Of a stretch of DNA of 64,000 nucleotides, positions 35,241 through 63,870 are shown piece after piece (position 1 is the stretch's first letter; each line of letters begins with the position of its first letter). This DNA is from Escherichia phage ph0011. The notes under the pieces were generated by a model. That model was not told the origin of the DNA, made no database searches, and was given only the letters and a program-made list of their open reading frames with translations. The position numbers and the translations under genes are program-made. The stretch lies in the sequence record OP557969.1. One strand, written 5' to 3'.

Positions 35241-35296
35241 AAGATGATAAATATTTTACAAAAGAATGTTTTTTTAGAAAAAAAAGGATTTTGTAA

Positions 35297-36781
35297 ATGA
35301 AAGTATGTACGAATTTAAATGTTACTGGTGATATAACGTCTAATGGGATGACGTTAAGCAAGAATCATAATTATGAGAATTTTAGTGACCTACAAGAAAG
35401 ATGTACTAAAATGCTTTTACAATTTGATAAACCTGAAGTATACGATCCTGATATTACTATTACAATAACTACTAAAAATGTAAATTATACATATAAAGGA
35501 CCAATTGATGGTATGTGTGATATAGAAAATCCTTCATTGTATAAAATTTCCATGTATGTATACACTGACAAAGAGTATTTTATAAACGATGTACAATTAT
35601 CAGATGATGGTAGTTTTCATTTTTCTAAAACGAATAATGGCTCAAAACAATTTAGACTAATTAGAATATCTGATAATAAATGGATTGATACATTAGAATA
35701 TGCATTATTGACTAGAAGTTATATAATACCAGAAACTGAAGATTCGCAAGTTAGAAATACAATGAAAGATCGTTGTTACACATATGATCAAGCGGCAGTT
35801 GCTATTGCATTAATGGTACAAAACCACCCAGAGATGGATAGATATGTATATGGTTTGTGTCAATTGGTTGAGGAAAATGGTGGAATAAAATTTTTTGTTA
35901 ATAGGATATCGGCATTTTCCAATAGAGCATACTATAGAATGGGTAATGCTGCATGGGTATTATATGGATTAGCTTTTTACTTATGGAAATTCCCAGATGG
36001 GGTATATGCGAATTTGGCCCGTGAAAAACTTTTGTTAGGGTTAGAATGGGTATCAACTTTTAAAGTAACTACACCCGGTGATAAAAGAGAAGGTTTATAT
36101 ATGGGTGGAAAAGGAAAATTTATCAATAATGGTTCTCAATTTGACCCGAATTACATTGCTAGTTGGTGTGCAATGGAACACAATTTAGATCTTTGGTTTT
36201 TATTTGATCTATGCTCTGTTATTGGAATTCAGAATTATGATACAATAGCAAAGGAATTACATAATAATATAAATGATAAATTGTGGATAGAAAGTGAAGG
36301 ACGTTTTCGTCAAGGTGTACATGAAACAACAGATGATAATGCTGCTGCATTAGATCAATCATCATGGGGTGGTTTGTATTCTTTATATGCAGATGGTAAT
36401 GATACAAAAGCAGTAAAATGTCACAAATATATGGAACGTTTTATGTTTGGTACGTTGGAATGTGAGGGATATACGCCTTATAATAAATTATTTGGTTATC
36501 CAAATGCAGTACAAGGTGTATGGACTGAAGGAACTGCTGGTGTGGCTTTGTTTGAACGTGCATTGGGTAATGACAGAACTGCCGCAAAATTAATTGCTAA
36601 TTTGAAGCCTATATGTGACCCAGTTTATGGATATCGTGACTCATGTGATGACCCAGATTACGATGTTCTTCCAGATTGGCCTTCCTCGTGTAATACAGCA
36701 TGGATTATTCTGGCTATTAACCCACAAGGTTTCTGGAAAGTTGAAGCCCCACTGATGGATATTGGGCTTGTGAAATATTAA
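35297..36781 (+). CDS. large hypothetical protein, possible alpha/alpha-toroid (six-hairpin) glycoside-hydrolase-like fold
   Basis: ATG after AAGGA; 494 aa; repeated aromatic/Gly-rich segments (NAAWVLYGLAFY, LDQSSWGGLY, VWTEGTAGVALF, SCNTAWIILA); fold call is my pattern-based guess. Confidence 0.5.
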   Translation: MKVCTNLNVTGDITSNGMTLSKNHNYENFSDLQERCTKMLLQFDKPEVYDPDITITITTKNVNYTYKGPIDGMCDIENPSLYKISMYVYTDKEYFINDVQLSDDGSFHFSKTNNGSKQFRLIRISDNKWIDTLEYALLTRSYIIPETEDSQVRNTMKDRCYTYDQAAVAIALMVQNHPEMDRYVYGLCQLVEENGGIKFFVNRISAFSNRAYYRMGNAAWVLYGLAFYLWKFPDGVYANLAREKLLLGLEWVSTFKVTTPGDKREGLYMGGKGKFINNGSQFDPNYIASWCAMEHNLDLWFLFDLCSVIGIQNYDTIAKELHNNINDKLWIESEGRFRQGVHETTDDNAAALDQSSWGGLYSLYADGNDTKAVKCHKYMERFMFGTLECEGYTPYNKLFGYPNAVQGVWTEGTAGVALFERALGNDRTAAKLIANLKPICDPVYGYRDSCDDPDYDVLPDWPSSCNTAWIILAINPQGFWKVEAPLMDIGLVKY

Positions 36782-53875: not shown

Positions 53876-54400
53876 ATGAAATATACACAACTAAACAACA
53901 ATGATACTAATATATGGTTAGGAAATATATCTAAAACACTTGAATTGGTTAAATTCACACTACAAAAATCGGTCGATATTGAAATTAATATTAAGAAAGA
54001 AATATTAAAACATTATCATAAAAATAAATTTTACAAGTTTATTTCTAAATTAATCTATGGGTTATATGATATTGAAGATATTTGTATTGGGTACAGTACT
54101 GGTATTTGTTTCACTACTGATGGTATAATGAATGATTTAAATTTTCGACTAACCCGCGAAGAACAAGATTTTCGTATATTTTGTGATAATATCATGAATG
54201 AAGATAAAATCCAATTTGTGATTGAATTGAGTCAGATATGGTCTGTATATGCAGACAAACCATTCGAAATTAATGAATCAGATATATTAAACTATATTCG
54301 AATAATGAAAATTCATGATTTATGTAAAAACGCATTACTAAGTATTGGAGCCTATGATGAAGCATACGACGTGGTTAAAGATAGCAGAAGTGGTTGCTGA
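53876..54400 (+). CDS. hypothetical protein
   Basis: ATG after GAGGA; 174 aa; 3' end overlaps the cd start by about 44 nt in another frame. Confidence 0.5.
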   Translation: MKYTQLNNNDTNIWLGNISKTLELVKFTLQKSVDIEINIKKEILKHYHKNKFYKFISKLIYGLYDIEDICIGYSTGICFTTDGIMNDLNFRLTREEQDFRIFCDNIMNEDKIQFVIELSQIWSVYADKPFEINESDILNYIRIMKIHDLCKNALLSIGAYDEAYDVVKDSRSGC

Positions 54401-54836
54401 AGAAAGTAAATGTCTTTCTCAAAAAGTTGGGTGTGTGATTGTTAAAAATAACCGAGTATTGAGTACTGGTTATAATGGTACTCCATCTAAACAACCTAAT
54501 TGTTGTGATGTTAATCAACATTTAGTTAAGAATGGTCGTTTTCAAGACTGGATTAGTGATGAAGCAAAGCATGAACACCATGAGTGGAGTAATATTCATG
54601 AAATACATGCAGAAATGAATGCACTGTTATATAGTTCTCCGACTGAGCGTCAAGGTTCAACACTTTACACAACACTCCAACCGTGTTATACTTGTTCTAA
54701 ATTGATAGCGGGGAGTGGTGTTTCTCGTGTAATTTATCAAAAAAGTTATCCTCGTACTCCACCAGAGGCTATTAAAGTACTGGAAGATGCTGGGATTATT
54801 GTAAATTGCATTTATGATAAGGATCTTGACAAATGA
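54357..54836 (+). CDS. cd: dCMP deaminase
   Basis: ATG 6 nt after GGAG; zinc-binding motifs HAEMNAL and PCYTCSKLI (HAE...PCxxC) and ESKC N-terminal segment as in T4 Cd; the ATG at 54354 is an alternative start. Confidence 0.88.
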   Translation: MKHTTWLKIAEVVAEESKCLSQKVGCVIVKNNRVLSTGYNGTPSKQPNCCDVNQHLVKNGRFQDWISDEAKHEHHEWSNIHEIHAEMNALLYSSPTERQGSTLYTTLQPCYTCSKLIAGSGVSRVIYQKSYPRTPPEAIKVLEDAGIIVNCIYDKDLDK

Positions 54837-55090
54837 CATTATTGGCAATCGCTGGTTTTTTGTTTATATTAGTTTTCTTGTTATTATTGGTAATGTTTGT
54901 TATTGATGATAACGATGGATATTTCAGAAATTATAAAGTACGCTTTTCTGCACAAAATAATAAGTATTATATTGTGAATTGTATTAAACATCGTGAAAAG
55001 AATGTAACAAATAGATTTGGATTTACAATTTATTACAAAGACCGCGTAGAGGCTGATATGATTTGTCAAAAACTTAACACAGTAGAATAA
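54833..55090 (+). CDS. small predicted membrane protein
   Basis: ATGA overlap; N-terminal hydrophobic helix. Confidence 0.5.
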   Translation: MTLLAIAGFLFILVFLLLLVMFVIDDNDGYFRNYKVRFSAQNNKYYIVNCIKHREKNVTNRFGFTIYYKDRVEADMICQKLNTVE

Positions 55091-55118
55091 AAAAAGGAGC
55101 CATATGGCTCCTTTTTTA
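55088..55118. terminator. bidirectional rho-independent terminator
   Basis: A-run, GGAGCCA-TA-TGGCTCC hairpin, T-run; sits between convergent + genes and the minus-strand gene. Confidence 0.7.
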
Positions 55119-55320
55119 TGTTTTTACGTAAGATGTATAGATCATTATTCAATTTGATTTTGTGAATCATATACATAGAACAAAAACCTCCAACACCTGC
55201 TTTTTCATCTTTTAATTTAATGAAGAAAGTATCATCTCTTAGACTTTCATCTGAATTTTCGATACTATCAATAGAAAAAGGAAGTCTTCCGGTTAATGCA
55301 ATTATGCTACTCTAAGGAAA

Positions 55321-55342
55321 GTGCATGATAATTATCATGCAC
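55321..55342 (-). terminator. candidate hairpin downstream of the minus-strand gene
   Basis: GTGCATGATA/TATCATGCAC palindrome 15 nt beyond the stop; weak U-run. Confidence 0.3.
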
Positions 55343-55356
55343 TATATTATTAAAAA

Positions 55357-58029
55357 TTAAGCACTGATTGTTACAGTTGCAGTATCTTTTTTATTACCAT
55401 CCACTGTAGTCACTGTAATGATTACAGAACCTTCTTCTAGAGCAGTTACTAATCCATCATCACTAATAGATACTTTAGTAGGTTTATCTGCACTATAAGT
55501 TACTGATTTGTTAGTTGCTTTAGCTGGTAGAACTTCTGGAACTAGTTGAACTGTTTTAGTTCCTGATAGTGAAAGTTCAGTAGTTTTAGGTGTTAAACTA
55601 ACACTGGATACTGGAACTGGAATATTAACGATTACTGATGTTTGACCAGTAACATCACTACCATCAGCGGCAGTAGCGATAATATTTGCAGTACCATTAG
55701 TTAGTGCAGTTACGATACCAGTATTAGCATCTACTTTAGCAATTTCTGGAGCACTGGATGACCAAATTACATTTTTATTGGTTGCATCACTTGGGGTAAT
55801 TGCAGCAGCCATTTGTTTAGTTGCATTCAATGTAGTCAAAGTTTGATCTTTAGGAGTTACATCAATTGCAGTTACTGGCACTGGAATATTAACAGTAATA
55901 ACACCTTGACCTGTTTTACCACTTCCATCAGCAGCAGTTGCGATAATGTTTGCAGAACCGTTAGTTAACGCAGTTACAACACCAGTACTAGCATCTACTT
56001 TCGCTACAGCAGGTTTACTGGAAGACCATGTTACAGATTTATTTGTTGCGTTAGTTGGAAGAACTTCAGCAGCCATTGCTTGAGTTGCGTTAACAGCAGT
56101 CAATGTTTTAGTTGCTGGAGTAACATTAATAGATGCGACTGGAACTGGAATTGCTACAGTTACCGCACATTTTGCAGTTTTTGCTCCATCAGCAGTTGTT
56201 ACTGTGATATCAGCAGTGCCATTTGCTACAGCAGTGATTAAACCAGTTGGACTAACAGTTGCCACTCCATCAGCAGAAGTACTATAAGTTACTGCTTTGT
56301 TGGTAGCATTAGGTGGTAGTACAGTTGGTGTTAGTTGTTGAGTATCACCGACTGAAGTTAATTTAGCACTTGTTGGAGATACTGATACACTTGCAACAGG
56401 AACTGGAATGTTAACAGTTACCACGCAAACTTTAGAAAATCCACCATCAGATGTGGTTGCTGTAATATTTGCAGTACCGTTTGCAACAGCAGTGATTAAA
56501 CCAGTTGGACTTACCGTTGCGACACCCTCAGCAGAAGTAGTGTATGAAATATCTTTACGACGAGCGTTATCTGGAATAACAGATGCAGTTAGTTGTTGAG
56601 TAGCACCTACAGAAGTTAGGGTTGCTGTCAACGGAGTCATATTAATTCCAGTTACTGGGATCGTTACATCAATCACTGATTCAGCAGTTTTAGCACCATC
56701 ATCAGTGGTAACAGTAATAGTTGTAGTACCGTTATCAACCGAAGTTACTAGACCAGTATTACTAACTTTTGCTACGTCTGGATATGAAGAAACATATGAA
56801 ACTGCTTTATTGGATGCAGTTGCAGGAGCAACGGTTGTTTCTAATTGTTTAGTATCACCTAATGTTGAGAATGTATAAGTACTAGGAGTCATTGTGACAC
56901 CAGATACTGGTGTTTTCACTGTGATTGTAGTAGTGTCCGTTTTAGCACCATCTTCGGTTGTAGCTGTAATCACCACTGTGCCGTTAGCCACACCAGTTAC
57001 TAGACCAGAAGTAGGGTTAACAGTTGCTATATCAGGTGTTGCTGAAGACCACGTGACGTTTTTATTAGTTGCATCATCAGGAGATATTGTAGCAGTTAAT
57101 TGTTGAGTACTGCCAACGTTAATTGATGCAGTTTTAGGAGAAACAACAACACCACTAACTGGAGTTGTTACAGTAACAGTACATTTTGAAACAAATGAAC
57201 CATCAACTGTAGTTGCAATTACATCAGTACTGCCATCTGCAATACCAGTTACCATACCAGTTGGACTTACAGTTGCGAAGCGTGGTATACTGGATGACCA
57301 AATAACACTTTTATCACTTGCATCATCGGGTGATACGGTAGCTGTTAGTTGATGAGTTTTACCAACACCAAGAGATAGAGTTGAAGGAGAAACAACAACA
57401 CCACTAACTGGAGTTGTTACAGTAAATGCACAAACATCGGTGAAACCACCATCATGAGTAGTAACTGTTACATTTGCATTACCATTAGCACGGGCAATTG
57501 CTAAACCAGTTTGAGCATCAACTTCAACTATTGTTGGAGCAGAGGAACTATAACTTACTGTTGGATCATTTGCATAATCTGGATTAATTGTAGCTGATAG
57601 TTGTTGTGTGCTACCAACTTTAAGTGCTACTACTTTGGGTGAAATAATAACACCATTAACTGGTGTAGTATAATCACGTTTAACCACACGACCATTGTTC
57701 AATTTAATAATACGACCCATATAAAGAGTAGCATATCCCTTACTAATCCCATCATCTACATAAATCATAAATGAATTGTCTTGAACCATATTAATTGCGT
57801 CTACTGGCTTAACAGTATTTGGAATGTCGATACCACGGGTATCATACCAACACATGGAAACTTTGTAATATATATCACCATTATCATTGATGAGATCATA
57901 CACGTTACTGGAACGTTGACGGTTAATATATAAAGTTTCGGTTAATACCTTACCATCGATTTTAGCGACAGAAACTTTAATACCACCAATACCAAATGGC
58001 AATTTACCTTCACTAGATATTGCTTTCAT
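55357..58029 (-). CDS. large virion-surface-type protein with about nine to ten tandem Ig-like (Big_2-type) domains
   Basis: 890-aa ORF, the only strong minus-strand gene; AAGGAAA RBS; repeated 85-90-aa units TPVSGV..SP...L.VG.TQQLTATV.P.DATNK.V.WSS..P..A.V...G.VT.VA.GT..ITATT.DG; ~120-aa non-repeat N-terminal domain. Confidence 0.85.
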   Translation of the reverse strand: MKAISSEGKLPFGIGGIKVSVAKIDGKVLTETLYINRQRSSNVYDLINDNGDIYYKVSMCWYDTRGIDIPNTVKPVDAINMVQDNSFMIYVDDGISKGYATLYMGRIIKLNNGRVVKRDYTTPVNGVIISPKVVALKVGSTQQLSATINPDYANDPTVSYSSSAPTIVEVDAQTGLAIARANGNANVTVTTHDGGFTDVCAFTVTTPVSGVVVSPSTLSLGVGKTHQLTATVSPDDASDKSVIWSSSIPRFATVSPTGMVTGIADGSTDVIATTVDGSFVSKCTVTVTTPVSGVVVSPKTASINVGSTQQLTATISPDDATNKNVTWSSATPDIATVNPTSGLVTGVANGTVVITATTEDGAKTDTTTITVKTPVSGVTMTPSTYTFSTLGDTKQLETTVAPATASNKAVSYVSSYPDVAKVSNTGLVTSVDNGTTTITVTTDDGAKTAESVIDVTIPVTGINMTPLTATLTSVGATQQLTASVIPDNARRKDISYTTSAEGVATVSPTGLITAVANGTANITATTSDGGFSKVCVVTVNIPVPVASVSVSPTSAKLTSVGDTQQLTPTVLPPNATNKAVTYSTSADGVATVSPTGLITAVANGTADITVTTADGAKTAKCAVTVAIPVPVASINVTPATKTLTAVNATQAMAAEVLPTNATNKSVTWSSSKPAVAKVDASTGVVTALTNGSANIIATAADGSGKTGQGVITVNIPVPVTAIDVTPKDQTLTTLNATKQMAAAITPSDATNKNVIWSSSAPEIAKVDANTGIVTALTNGTANIIATAADGSDVTGQTSVIVNIPVPVSSVSLTPKTTELSLSGTKTVQLVPEVLPAKATNKSVTYSADKPTKVSISDDGLVTALEEGSVIITVTTVDGNKKDTATVTISA
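55360..57670 (-). repeat. in-frame tandem repeats of about 255-270 bp encoding Ig-like domains
   Basis: Recurrent nucleotide and peptide units visible across the gene body. Confidence 0.65.
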
Positions 58030-58066
58030 ATACTTTCCTTTATAAAATTGTATTGTATTGTTATAT

Positions 58067-58074
58067 TATTTATA
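58067..58074 (-). promoter_or_regulatory. T4-type late promoter (TATAAATA)
   Basis: TATAAATA on the minus strand 38 nt upstream of the ATG at 58029. Confidence 0.45.
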
Positions 58075-58265
58075 TTATAACAAAATTATTTTAGTATTAA
58101 AAAGGTGTTCGAATGCTTCTTGAAATCTGGCTTGGACAGGTCAATCTTTGCTTTTAAAATGGAATTGTAAACTGCCTCCTGATATGATATCATAGTTTAA
58201 ATGGTAAATCAATAAACTTAACAAAAAAAACTTGCTACTACAGTCATAATTGTTCAATTTTGTAC

Positions 58266-58294
58266 TTGACATAATTAATCAATTATTGTACTAT
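58266..58294 (+). promoter_or_regulatory. candidate sigma70-like promoter
   Basis: TTGACA-N17-TACTAT about 35 nt upstream of the ATG at 58330. Confidence 0.4.
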
Positions 58295-58329
58295 TGTTAA
58301 TGTTCCTTAACTCAAATCCGAGGTAATCA

Positions 58330-58935
58330 ATGAAACTATTCTTGAAAGAGATTGTACAAACCGTTGTTTTAATCGCTGCATTAAATTTTCCAGCAGCGGC
58401 AGAAGTTTCAAAAAAAGCATCTGTTCTTCTATTAAATGAACAGGTTGTATCAATGGATGGTGAACTAAATGATAATACGGTACAAGAAGTAGAGCAGTTG
58501 TGGAAAGAAAAAAGATTTAAAATTTTAACAATTACATCACCTGGGGGTGATTTTGATGCTGGTATTAAAATGGCAAATTTTGTTAGAGACAATGGTATAA
58601 ATTTAATTGTTTCTAAATATTGCAATTCGGCATGTACTGTGGTATTCTTTAGTGTATCCCCAGAAAAGCGATATATGACAAATCAATCAGTACTGGGATT
58701 GCATAATATTTCAATCAAAAGTAACGTTAAAGATATGGATCATACTTTCGTATCTGTTAGACAACTATCATCATTTACTGAAGAAATGGCAACAAAAGTA
58801 GGATTTTTATTTACACTATATTCAGCTAATGGTATTCCACCTAGCATTCTATATAAAGTTAGTCGTTCACGTGGTGAAGATGTTGTTATCTTAACAAAAA
58901 CAGACCTAATAAATTACGGTTCAGTCAATCCATGA
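58330..58935 (+). CDS. putative secreted ClpP/SppA-fold serine peptidase-like protein
   Basis: ATG after GAGG; N-terminal signal-peptide-like hydrophobic segment; ITSPGGDFDAG and CNSACTVVFF resemble the ClpP/S49 SPGG and Ser regions. Confidence 0.45.
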   Translation: MKLFLKEIVQTVVLIAALNFPAAAEVSKKASVLLLNEQVVSMDGELNDNTVQEVEQLWKEKRFKILTITSPGGDFDAGIKMANFVRDNGINLIVSKYCNSACTVVFFSVSPEKRYMTNQSVLGLHNISIKSNVKDMDHTFVSVRQLSSFTEEMATKVGFLFTLYSANGIPPSILYKVSRSRGEDVVILTKTDLINYGSVNP

Positions 58936-59003: not shown

Positions 59004-59264
59004 ATGACAAACATCCAGAATTTGACATCTATTATTTTTTATGCTACAGTGGTGATATATGCTATTGTACTTATTTTAACAGTTTTTATATACAAAGATT
59101 ACAAAAAAGGCTTTATTAATAGCACAACAATCAAGTTCAATTCTAAATTTAAAGAAATTATATTTTATGTTTTGACAACATCATATTTGTTGTGTATATT
59201 GTTACTAGGGCCATTGATTTATATTTTATATACAACATTATTTGCAATTGGAGCTATTTTATGA
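59004..59264 (+). CDS. small predicted membrane protein
   Basis: ATG ORF; two hydrophobic helices; stop overlaps next start (ATGA). Confidence 0.5.
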   Translation: MTNIQNLTSIIFYATVVIYAIVLILTVFIYKDYKKGFINSTTIKFNSKFKEIIFYVLTTSYLLCILLLGPLIYILYTTLFAIGAIL

Positions 59265-59857
59265 CATGTATTATTGCACACACTAACGGTGTAACTTCAT
59301 TTATTGCAGGGGACAAGATGGGGAGTGATGGTTTTACGAAATCAATCCAAACAGAGCCGAAAGTGTTTGAGAAAGAATTCGTAAAGATTAGTGGTGATGA
59401 CGGCTTGACTCGTACAAAAGATGTTATGACTTTTGGATTCACTACATCATTTCGTATGGGGCAACTGCTAACTTACAATTTAAATTTACCAGACCAAAAT
59501 TCAAATGAGACGTTTCTACAGTACTTAGTACTGAAAGTTATTCCTATTATTCGCCAAATGTTTAAAGACGAATGGGGTGCACGTGATACATCACAAGATG
59601 TTGGTGGTGGTCAATTTATTATTTTACACAATCATAAGATTTATGAAATTCAGGAAGATTTTTCAGTTCTCCAGTCAAAATCAAGTATTGCATCAGTTGG
59701 TAGTGGTACATATCATGCAATTGCAGCGATGCAAGCATACATTGAACTCGAAAAAGAAACTAACGTACAACTTCATGAACGTATCAAATCTATTTTCAAA
59801 ATTGTCAGTGATAATGTGTCGAGTGTAAGTGAAGAGTTTGATGTATTAAAATATTAA
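59261..59857 (+). CDS. proteasome-type Ntn-hydrolase (HslV-like peptidase)
   Basis: ATG at 59261; N-terminal MTCIIAHTNGVTSFIAGD (Thr directly after Met) and IASVGSGTYHAIAAMQAYIE parallel HslV TTIV...IAGD and IAIGSGGPYA segments. Confidence 0.65.
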   Translation: MTCIIAHTNGVTSFIAGDKMGSDGFTKSIQTEPKVFEKEFVKISGDDGLTRTKDVMTFGFTTSFRMGQLLTYNLNLPDQNSNETFLQYLVLKVIPIIRQMFKDEWGARDTSQDVGGGQFIILHNHKIYEIQEDFSVLQSKSSIASVGSGTYHAIAAMQAYIELEKETNVQLHERIKSIFKIVSDNVSSVSEEFDVLKY

Positions 59858-63579: not shown

Positions 63580-63768
63580 ATGGCTAAACAACCTAAGAAA
63601 AAAGAACCAGTAGCTAAAGTTAAAAAAGCAAAAGTTATTACATCCACAGAACAACGTATGTACGAACAACGTAAGAGTGAAACACTTTCTGGTCTACAAG
63701 CTCTTCGCAAACAAGGAGTCCTAACTCGTGCACAATATCGTAAGTTGGTAACACAAAAAGGTTATTGA
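63580..63768 (+). CDS. small basic hypothetical protein
   Basis: ATG after AAGGAG; Lys-rich 62 aa. Confidence 0.55.
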   Translation: MAKQPKKKEPVAKVKKAKVITSTEQRMYEQRKSETLSGLQALRKQGVLTRAQYRKLVTQKGY

Positions 63769-63870
63769 TACATTTGAAGTAATATTATGGGGTTCTTAAT
63801 AAATAACCTTATAAGAATAATAATACTTTTTATTAAATTAAAAAGAACTCCATGTGTTATTTCAGTTTTT

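What the first reader, a model, noticed from the sequence alone, without database searches (positions are those of the whole stretch)
55357..58074. Single opposite-strand gene: late-promoter-driven Ig-like repeat protein
This 890-aa protein has about ten Big_2-type Ig-like repeats and is the only strong minus-strand gene. It sits between a bidirectional terminator and a TATAAATA late-promoter motif and looks G+C-richer than its flanks by eye. It is probably a late virion surface or decoration protein (Hoc-like or adhesin-like), possibly acquired horizontally and inserted among early genes.
Basis: partly seen in the sequence, partly recalled or inferred. Interest (0 to 1): 0.7.

Follow-up and report, generated by a model that had tools for sequence, protein, structure and literature searches.

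The report
Jumbo-phage virion protein with nine Ig domains
This is a late-expressed surface protein of a giant E. coli-type phage, made of a small lineage-specific anchor module followed by nine Ig-like domains; it belongs to a protein family already detected in the virions of related phages, so it is a fairly ordinary though unusually long member.

Summary
ORF 55357-58029 (-) encodes 890 aa with nine (not ten) Big_2 domains. It is the only real minus-strand gene in the window. It lies between a bidirectional terminator and the only intergenic TATAAATA.

The window comes from a Rak2-like jumbo phage (Asteriusvirus; closest is UE-S1, ~90% nt). The gene fills a slot next to dCMP deaminase, on the opposite strand, that is conserved across at least five genera. 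It is therefore ancestral, not a recent insertion. The extra G+C comes from amino-acid composition: GC3 is 0.125, against 0.263 for the window.

Residues 1-122 form a separate all-beta module with no matching solved fold. The module also occurs on its own (phAPEC6 gp347, found in virions at 75% coverage) and fused to 1-9 Big_2 domains or other Ig-like cargo (CBB_112 is also in virions).

ATAAATA is about tenfold depleted in the window but conserved upstream of the orthologues. The lineage encodes a gp55-like late sigma factor.

Best reading: a late virion-surface protein with an N-terminal anchor and a flexible Ig arm for weak adhesion. It resembles Hoc in function but is not homologous to it. 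Where it sits on the virion and what it binds are unknown.

Novelty: new member of a known kind.

The parts
58067..58074 (-). TATAAATA, T4-type late-promoter-like -10 element, beginning 45 nt upstream of the ATG
   Evidence: Only 2 copies in 64 kb against 15.1 +/- 3.6 expected. The ATAAATA core occurs 5 times against about 45-50 expected. The surrounding block is identical in UE-S1 and A4. ATAAATA is present upstream of orthologues in 9 of 10 IMG/VR loci and in L019. CBB Porf_112 is listed as a late-like promoter.
58033..58040 (-). Ribosome-binding site AAGGAAAG, ending 3 nt (TAT) upstream of the ATG (AAGGA core 6 nt upstream)
   Evidence: Read directly from the sequence. Conserved in UE-S1 and A4.
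57664..58029 (-). N-terminal module, aa 1-122: a lineage-specific all-beta putative virion-anchor domain. Residues 1-11 are conserved but predicted disordered.
55360..57663 (-). Array of nine Big_2 Ig-like domains, aa 123-890. Domain coordinates: R1 57412-57663, R2 57163-57411, R3 56911-57162, R4 56659-56910, R5 56407-56658, R6 56149-56406, R7 55885-56148, R8 55621-55884, R9 55360-55620.
   Evidence: Pfam PF02368 E = 9.3e-136, 9 stretches. Domain boundaries and the nt identity matrix, 51-74% between repeats. R1 modelled as a beta-sandwich with pLDDT mostly 84-98 in 10-residue blocks. TRF detects only the R7/R8 pair.
55357..55359 (-). Stop codon (TAA)
55320..55343 (-). Conserved hairpin just after the stop codon, followed by a weak U-tract. 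Probably a leaky terminator or an RNA-stabilising element.
   Evidence: -13.3 kcal/mol, z = -5.2. Conserved in UE-S1 and A4, where in A4 it precedes the intact gene A4_463, which has no ATAAATA of its own.
55123..55311 (-). Pseudogene remnant of a second, stand-alone N-module gene (A4_463-like). It has no start codon and an internal deletion of roughly aa 20-70.
   Evidence: tblastn to A4_463 aa 74-122: 75.5% identity, E = 3e-20. Protein and DNA alignments.
55090..55117 (.). Bidirectional intrinsic terminator (A6-GGAGCCATATGGCTCC-T6). It closes both the plus-strand unit ending at 55090 and the minus-strand unit.
   Evidence: The identical stem occurs at the same position in the distant relative L019.

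Best explanation
The gene encodes a late-expressed, non-essential virion-surface protein of a Rak2-like (Asteriusvirus-type) jumbo myovirus.

Expression: the phage's gp55-like sigma factor probably initiates transcription at the TATAAATA element (58067-58074). The transcript probably reads through a leaky hairpin and a dead paralogue and ends at the bidirectional terminator (55090-55117).

Protein: it has two parts. Residues 1-122 form a lineage-specific all-beta module that attaches the protein to the virion. Residues 123-890 are nine tandem Big_2 Ig-like domains. These should form a flexible arm of roughly 30 nm projecting from the particle. The arm probably mediates weak, reversible binding to carbohydrate-rich surfaces (host envelope, capsule or mucus), which would increase encounters with the host.

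Evolution: whole domains have been gained, lost and reordered, so relatives carry 0, 1, 2, 6, 7, 8 or 9 domains on the same anchor.

Status of each step:
- Shown here: domain architecture, synteny, motif statistics and conservation, and the amino-acid origin of the extra G+C.
- Shown in relatives by published MS: virion incorporation of the anchor module, both alone and with one Ig domain.
- Inferred: late timing, the anchoring role of the module in this particular protein, arm length, adhesive function, and position on the virion (capsid or tail).
For: Architecture.

Anchor module:
- PHROG 'virion structural protein' families.
- 58 Rak2-like phage records, and no phages outside that group, carry the module.
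- 101 cluster representatives have the module at residues 1 to ~122 and total lengths of 102-1859 aa.
- The cargo is Big_2, invasin D3/Big_1, HYDIN/ASH Ig-like domains, or unknown.

Virion presence in relatives:
- CBB_112 (PMC5259590).
- phAPEC6 gp347, the module alone, has the highest coverage of all 62 virion proteins: 75.2%, against 74.9% for the major capsid protein (PMC7247149).

Late expression:
- TATAAATA occurs 2 times against ~15 expected; ATAAATA 5 times against ~45-50.
- A second intergenic ATAAATA in the window precedes a tail-fibre gene (phrog_13714, E = 6e-184).
- The motif is conserved upstream of orthologues.
- The CBB late-like promoter table includes Porf_112.
- A gp55-like sigma factor is present in the lineage.

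Ancestral slot.

Native codon usage.
Against: - There are no transcription or proteome data for this phage or for any long-array orthologue (UE-S1_422 and A4_464 are annotated only as 'hypothetical').
- The MS evidence concerns proteins whose N-module is only 28-38% identical to this one.
- The position on the virion is unknown, and the fold search gave no informative match.
- Adhesion by Big_2 arrays is a general expectation (Fraser et al. 2006, cited in PMC5259590) and was not tested.
- The Yersinia orthologue lacks the ATAAATA motif. 121Q_472 also has none in the 150 nt upstream.
- T4-type late transcription also needs gp33 and gp45, and no homologues were found in CBB.
Confidence: 0.7

Rival explanations
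1. It is the phage's major tail (tube) protein or another core tail component, as RefSeq names several orthologues ('major tail protein').
For: RefSeq and GenBank annotations of GAP32_111, CBB_112, the RaK2 and K64-1 orthologues, and XbC2. Many PHROG 'major tail protein' families match.
Against: The PHROG matches cover only the C-terminal Ig part of those profiles, for example 66-148/154, 156-244/245 and 378-460/461. The N-module shows no tube-like or Hcp-like fold. The gene varies from 0 to 9 Ig domains and decays to pseudogenes, which would not be tolerated in a core tube protein. It lies far from the tail gene cluster.
Confidence: 0.03
2. It is a recently acquired foreign adhesin gene, inserted by horizontal transfer into an early-gene block.
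For: Opposite strand. G+C is 0.384 against 0.319. Big_2 domains are promiscuous among phages and bacteria: 1190 phage records match.
Against: The slot and orientation are the same in at least five genera. GC3 of 0.125 is below the window mean of 0.263, and the extra G+C is fully explained by the Thr/Val/Ala/Ser/Gly/Pro content. The N-module is specific to this phage lineage. Individual Ig domains (R2, R8) with no close counterpart could still have come from unsampled relatives by recombination.
Confidence: 0.05
3. It is a primary receptor-binding protein or side fibre that determines host range, rather than an accessory adhesin.
For: Variation between closely related phages in domain number and order, as is typical for host-range genes. 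PHROG and PDB matches include tail-fibre and 'surface protein' entries. 121Q, phAPEC6 and CBB carry unexplained hair-like fibres on the tail and capsid.
Against: There is no distinct C-terminal receptor-binding or enzymatic tip domain; the last domain is another Big_2. 121Q-type phages infect E. coli with no Ig array at all. Dedicated tail-fibre genes exist elsewhere, including in this window at 35297-36781. The CBB hairs measure 119 nm, which does not fit its one-domain orthologue.
Confidence: 0.12
4. It is not a virion component at all but a protein that acts in or on the infected cell, for example in superinfection exclusion or on the cell surface or lysate.
For: There is no direct proteomic evidence for this protein or for the long-array orthologues. 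It lies among metabolic genes.
Against: Homologous N-module proteins are found in purified virions of two phages. No TM-family or signal-peptide-type family hits appeared in Pfam; no dedicated signal-peptide or TM predictor was run. The promoter type is shared with structural genes.
Confidence: 0.07

Closest known systems
Rak2-like jumbo-phage 'Ig domain-containing / structural protein with Ig domain' family (RaK2 ORF496, GAP32_111, CBB_112, Serratia BF gp105; phrog_10468), together with the stand-alone 14-kDa virion protein family (121Q_471, PBECO4, phAPEC6 gp347; phrog_33171)
   Same: Same N-terminal module, 28-38% identity in the distant members and 92-98% in A4 and UE-S1. Same slot next to dCMP deaminase on the opposite strand. 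Same ATAAATA-type upstream motif. Big_2 cargo.
   Different: Nine Big_2 domains, against 0-2 in the characterised members and 6-7 in UE-S1 and A4. Two domains (R2, R8) have no close counterpart. The accompanying stand-alone paralogue is a pseudogene here.
T4 Hoc (highly immunogenic outer capsid protein)
   Same: A dispensable, late, Ig-like array displayed from the virion through a separate anchor domain. Proposed weak adhesion to glycans or mucus (functional analogy, from established knowledge).
   Different: No detectable sequence or fold homology. The Ig domains here are Big_2. The anchor is N-terminal here and C-terminal in Hoc. There are nine Ig domains here and three in Hoc. The binding site on the virion is unknown.
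Lambda gpV-type major tail proteins with a C-terminal Big_2 domain; Big_2 decoration domains of siphophage and myophage structural proteins (Fraser et al. 2006)
   Same: Big_2 domains displayed on the virion surface. This is the source of the 'major tail protein' annotations.
   Different: There is no tail-tube domain. Similarity is limited to the Ig domain.

Membership tests
Big_2 (PF02368) Ig-like repeat proteins | Match to PF02368 above the gathering score, in tandem ~80-aa units | tested here: met
   442.5 bits against a cut-off of 22.8, 9 stretches. Nine units of 83-88 aa. R1 modelled as a beta-sandwich.
Rak2-like N-module virion protein family (phrog_33171 / phrog_10468) | N-terminal ~120-aa module with the conserved motifs (M-K-x-I-A ... 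P-F-x-x-x-G-I ... Q-R-S ... D-L) | tested here: met
   phrog_33171 E = 1.4e-16, phrog_10468 E = 4.5e-08. Invariant columns. Profile search.
Rak2-like N-module virion protein family (phrog_33171 / phrog_10468) | Conserved genomic slot: opposite strand, adjacent to dCMP deaminase and a small hypothetical gene | tested here: met
   Window ORFs 54345-54836 (deaminase) and 54833-55090. Same arrangement in UE-S1, A4, 121Q, GAP32, BF, RaK2, CBB and L019.
Rak2-like N-module virion protein family (phrog_33171 / phrog_10468) | Incorporation into the virion | not testable with these tools
   Shown by MS/MS only for CBB_112 and phAPEC6 gp347. Not known for this protein.
T4 Hoc family | Sequence or profile homology to Hoc | tested here: not met
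   No Hoc family or chain appears among the Pfam, PHROG or PDB sequence hits.
T4 Hoc family | N-terminal Ig-like domains followed by a C-terminal capsid-binding domain | tested here: not met
   The polarity is reversed: the non-Ig module is at residues 1-122 and the Ig domains run to the C-terminus.
T4 Hoc family | Binds the centre of major-capsid-protein hexamers | not testable with these tools
   phAPEC6 and 121Q do have an unassigned protein at the hexamer centre, but nothing links it to this family.
Lambda gpV-type major tail protein | N-terminal tail-tube domain | tested here: not met
T4-type late promoter | TATAAATA element at a suitable distance upstream of the gene | tested here: met
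   58067-58074, 37 nt before the ATG. Strongly depleted elsewhere in the window. Conserved in orthologues.
T4-type late promoter | gp55-type sigma factor encoded by the phage | tested here: inconclusive
   Present in CBB (CBB_244) with 74%-identical full-length homologues in Asteriusvirus coliphages, and its C-terminus matches cyanophage gp55. It is not inside this window, and the source genome is not available. No gp33 or gp45 homologues were reported for CBB.
T4-type late promoter | Late timing and a mapped transcription start | not testable with these tools
   No transcriptome was found for any Rak2-like phage that carries this gene.
Bidirectional intrinsic terminator | G+C-rich hairpin flanked by an A-tract and a T-tract, stable on both strands | tested here: met
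   (-17.0 and -18.3 kcal/mol; z = -5.9 and -5.4).

The most novel reading that the evidence does not exclude
The 122-aa N-module is a previously unrecognised high-copy virion anchor whose fold is absent from the PDB. It may account for one of the decoration densities still unassigned in the T=28 capsids or sheath rings of 121Q and phAPEC6, such as the 'fibre-anchoring' protein at the hexamer centres. On this reading, the number of Ig domains attached to it (0 to 9 in different phages) sets the length of a virion 'fur', and the stand-alone paralogues compete for the same sites and so set its density. This would be a Hoc-like system that arose independently and is length-tunable.
Probability: 0.2. 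Interest if true: 0.55.

Novelty: new member of a known kind. Interest (0 to 1): 0.3.

Why it matters
Ig-like arrays on phage surfaces are thought to help phages hold on to host or mucosal surfaces. This locus gives a natural series of 0, 1, 2, 6, 7, 8 and 9 domains on one conserved anchor. That series could be used to test how arm length affects adsorption. It also offers a candidate for virion densities still unassigned in 121Q and phAPEC6.

For annotation, 'major tail protein' is a misnomer for this family. The N-terminal module links the 14-kDa 'virion structural protein' of 121Q-type phages to the long Ig proteins. The strong genome-wide avoidance of ATAAATA supports it as the late-promoter core in this lineage.

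None of this overturns current understanding.

Tried and rejected
1. Foreign origin from G+C. Rejected: GC3 is lower than the genome's, and the excess is explained by amino-acid composition.
2. Recent tandem duplication. Rejected: repeats are 51-74% identical at the nucleotide level, and TRF sees only the R7/R8 pair. Differences between phages are whole-domain gains and losses plus one order swap.
3. 'Major tail protein'. Rejected.
4. Hoc homology. No evidence.
5. The weak phmmer hits of the N-module to Borrelia OspA (E = 6e-5, 0 stretches passing on their own) were treated as compositional beta-sheet noise and not followed.
6. The word-indexed protein search with the N-module alone found only 2 proteins. 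A profile query was needed.
8. The exact 890-aa protein is not in public assemblies.
9. The UE-S1, fEgEco12 and A4 papers say nothing about this gene.
10. The sigma-70 promoter scan of the region was no better than chance: 24 found against 27.9 expected.
11. The degenerate hairpin just upstream of the promoter, intact in UE-S1 and A4, does not fold in the window.
Full report
**Observation**

The window holds an 890-aa ORF at 55357..58029 on the minus strand. Pfam Big_2 (PF02368) matches at E = 9.3e-136 in nine stretches. A recurring (T/I)-P-V linker divides residues 123-890 into exactly nine domains of 83-88 aa.

The six other minus-strand ORFs of 100 aa or more all lie within longer plus-strand ORFs. 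This is the only real minus-strand gene among about 124 plus-strand ORFs.

TATAAATA sits at 58067-58074 (-), beginning 45 nt before the ATG, and an AAGGA ribosome-binding site follows it.

The hairpin at 55090-55117 folds strongly on both strands (-17.0 and -18.3 kcal/mol; z = -5.9 and -5.4) and has U-tracts on both sides.

G+C is higher in the gene: 0.384, against 0.319 +/- 0.034 for plus-strand genes.

All elements of the observation are confirmed.

**Source and synteny**

The window is about 89-92% identical in nucleotide sequence to Escherichia phage UE-S1. It is 82-87% identical to 121Q, PBECO4, phAPEC6 and other Asteriusvirus jumbo phages of about 350 kb.

A single opposite-strand gene of this family lies immediately after dCMP deaminase and a small hypothetical gene in several genera:

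| Phage (gene) | Length |
|---|---|
| UE-S1 (UES1_422) | 633 aa |
| A4 (A4_464) | 722 aa |
| GAP32 (GAP32_111) | 303 aa |
| Serratia BF (gp105) | 301 aa |
| RaK2 (ORF496) | 212 aa |
| CBB (CBB_112) | 218 aa |
| Metagenomic relative L019 | 820 aa and 298 aa, in tandem |

The position and orientation are therefore ancestral to the Rak2-like group. The gene is not a recent insertion.

**Composition**

The extra G+C lies entirely in codon positions 1 and 2 (GC1 0.50 and GC2 0.55, against 0.41 and 0.28 for the window). This follows from the amino-acid content: Thr 18.6%, Val 13.9%, Ala 11.7%, Ser 10.3%, Gly 6.5% and Pro 6.0%.

GC3 of the Ig region is 0.125, below the window mean of 0.263. Applying the window's own codon usage to this amino-acid sequence predicts a G+C of 0.415, which is higher than the observed 0.392. 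Composition therefore argues against foreign origin.

**Two-part architecture**

Residues 1-122 are not Ig-like. They match two PHROG families annotated 'virion structural protein' (phrog_33171, E = 1.4e-16; phrog_10468, E = 4.5e-08).

The same module occurs in three forms:
- Alone: 121Q_471, PBECO4, phAPEC6 gp347 and A4_463, each about 125 aa.
- Truncated: 121Q_472 and A4_466.
- Fused to Big_2 domains.

tblastn finds the module in 58 phage records, all of them Rak2-like jumbo phages.

A profile built from module-only proteins finds 101 cluster representatives among 1.84 billion proteins. In nearly all of them the module is at residues 1 to ~122, and total lengths run from 102 to 1859 aa. The cargo behind it is Big_2 arrays, invasin D3/Big_1 domains, HYDIN/ASH-type Ig-like domains, or sequence with no Pfam match. 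This pattern fits a conserved N-terminal anchor that displays interchangeable, mostly Ig-like cargo.

**Structure**

AlphaFold2 with a 23-sequence alignment gives a confident all-beta model of the module (pLDDT 83.6, pTM 0.77). Residues 1-11 are highly conserved but predicted disordered, which suggests (as an inference) a partner-binding arm.

- Foldseek against the PDB gives nothing better than E = 0.39.
- BFVD returns only members of the same phage family.

The fold is therefore not that of any solved decoration protein, Hoc, or tail-tube protein.

**Experimental evidence in relatives**

CBB_112 (module plus one Big_2) was detected in purified CBB virions with 4 unique peptides and 24.3% coverage (PMC5259590).

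phAPEC6 gp347 (14.1 kDa, the module alone) was detected with 8 peptides and 75.2% coverage. That is the highest coverage of all 62 virion proteins, just above the major head protein at 74.9% (PMC7247149). The module alone is therefore sufficient for virion association, and it is probably abundant.

Low-resolution maps of phAPEC6 and 121Q show several decoration components that remain unassigned:
- a hexagonal network on the capsid;
- a fibrous protein anchored at each hexamer centre;
- ring-like hairs on the sheath;
- a decoration protein at two levels of the tail.

Nothing yet links this family to any one of them.

**Promoter**

TATAAATA occurs twice in 64 kb against 15.1 +/- 3.6 expected, and never on the plus strand.

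The ATAAATA core occurs 5 times against about 19-29 expected per strand. Three of the five sites are intergenic and point towards a downstream gene:
- this gene;
- 35247 (+), about 50 nt before a tail-fibre gene (phrog_13714, E = 5.7e-184);
- 63799 (+).

The other two lie antisense inside plus-strand coding sequence.

The block from the motif to the ATG is nearly identical in UE-S1 and A4. ATAAATA lies 35-45 nt upstream of the orthologue in 9 of 10 IMG/VR loci and in L019, although the flanking sequence has diverged.

The CBB authors found ATAAATA by MEME upstream of 35 structural genes, and the first entry in their list is Porf_112.

The gp55-like sigma factor CBB_244 has full-length homologues at about 74% identity in Asteriusvirus coliphages, and its C-terminus matches gp55 of T4-like cyanophages.

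Late expression is therefore well supported by inference, but it has not been shown directly.

**The 3' end of the unit**

Between the stop codon and the terminator lie two features:
- A hairpin conserved in UE-S1 and A4 (55320-55343; -13.3 kcal/mol, z = -5.2).
- The remnant of a stand-alone N-module gene. Positions 55123-55269 match A4_463 residues 74-122 at 75.5% identity (E = 3e-20).

The window and UE-S1 both lack the 15-nt segment that holds the RBS and ATG of A4_463. Each carries a different internal deletion.

In A4 the intact paralogue follows the same hairpin and has no ATAAATA of its own. The hairpin is therefore probably leaky, and the bidirectional terminator is probably the real end of the transcript (inference).

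**Array evolution**

Repeats within the gene are only 51-74% identical at the nucleotide level, so they are old.

| Phage | Ig domains, in order |
|---|---|
| Window | R1-R2-R3-R4-R5-R6-R7-R8-R9 |
| UE-S1 | R1-R3-R4-R5-R7-R9, each 94-99% identical to the window domain |
| A4 | counterparts of R1, R3, R4, R5 (65-76%), then R7 (93%), R6 (86%), R9 (93%) |

In A4 the R6 and R7 counterparts are in the opposite order to the window. R2 and R8 have no close counterpart (best 67-69% and 74-75%).

Differences between strains are therefore gains, losses and shuffling of whole domains at the conserved linkers. L019 shows that a long array on the same anchor also exists in a separate lineage with GAP32-type synteny.

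**Interpretation**

The best-supported reading is a late, dispensable virion-surface protein. Its N-terminal module binds the particle, and nine Ig-like domains form a flexible arm. The arm would be roughly 30 nm long if each domain spans 3.5-4 nm (an inference from general knowledge of Ig-like domains).

The likely role is weak, reversible adhesion to carbohydrate-rich surfaces, as proposed generally for phage Ig-like domains (Fraser et al. 2006, cited in PMC5259590). In this sense it works like T4 Hoc. It is not a Hoc homologue, and its polarity is reversed.

The 'major tail protein' label on several orthologues reflects similarity to Ig domains only.

**Verdict**

- The gene is a new and unusually long member of a family already annotated and detected by MS in relatives.
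- What this analysis adds: the anchor module is recognised as the link between the 14-kDa virion proteins and the Ig-array proteins; the domain-number series is laid out; and the strong avoidance of ATAAATA is quantified.
- The protein's position on the virion and its ligand remain unknown.

Noticed in passing
window 35247-35253 (+) and gene 35297-36781 (+): One of only two plus-strand ATAAATA sites lies about 50 nt upstream of a 494-aa gene matching tail-fibre protein families (phrog_13714, E = 5.7e-184). It is probably a second late-promoter-driven structural gene embedded in the plus-strand block.
   Followed up: partly
whole window: The ATAAATA core is about tenfold depleted (5 observed, ~45-50 expected from Markov models), and TATAAATA is absent from the plus strand. 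This looks like genome-wide avoidance of a functional late-promoter signal.
   Followed up: partly
window 63799-63805 (+): A third intergenic ATAAATA follows ORF 63580-63768 and faces a gene that runs off the end of the window. Its identity was not checked.
   Followed up: no
window 55123-55311 (-): Decayed copy of a stand-alone N-module gene (A4_463-like), with no start codon and an internal deletion. UE-S1 carries an independently deleted copy.
   Followed up: yes
window 58075-58329: The divergent intergenic region keeps DNA similarity to the flanks of A4_465 and A4_466 (truncated N-module copies), but the coding parts are missing. The hairpin that sits just upstream of the promoter in UE-S1 and A4 is degenerate here (no stable fold). 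A sigma-70-like site (TTGACA-17-TACTAT, 58266-58294, +) faces the ClpP-like protease gene at 58330.
   Followed up: partly
window 53876-54400 (+): Homologue of a 'virion structural protein' (phrog_19307, E = 1.6e-57; 121Q_468 and GAP32_108), located on the plus strand directly before dCMP deaminase and overlapping its start. The neighbourhood is therefore not purely early or metabolic.
   Followed up: no
L019 7467-7500 and window 55090-55117: The terminator stem GGAGCCATATGGCTCC is identical in the window and in a distantly related metagenomic jumbo phage, at the same position after the N-module gene or genes. That is unusually strong conservation for a terminator.
   Followed up: no
L019 4001-7466: An uncultured Rak2-like phage (Logan ERR13998736) has two N-module genes in tandem at this slot: 820 aa with about 8 Big_2 domains, and 298 aa with 2. 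The longer one has ATAAATA upstream and the shorter has CTAAATA.
   Followed up: partly
L017 (Yersinia phage fHe-Yen9-04), 3582-4619: This orthologue carries the N-module fused to a non-Ig C-terminal region with no Pfam hit (345 aa). It lacks the ATAAATA motif upstream.
   Followed up: no
window 58330-58935, 59192-59857 and upstream ~51-53 kb: Several ClpP-like or HslV-like protease genes cluster around the locus (phrog_26024 'protease'; 121Q annotates 464, 473 and 475 as proteases). Their role was not examined.
   Followed up: no
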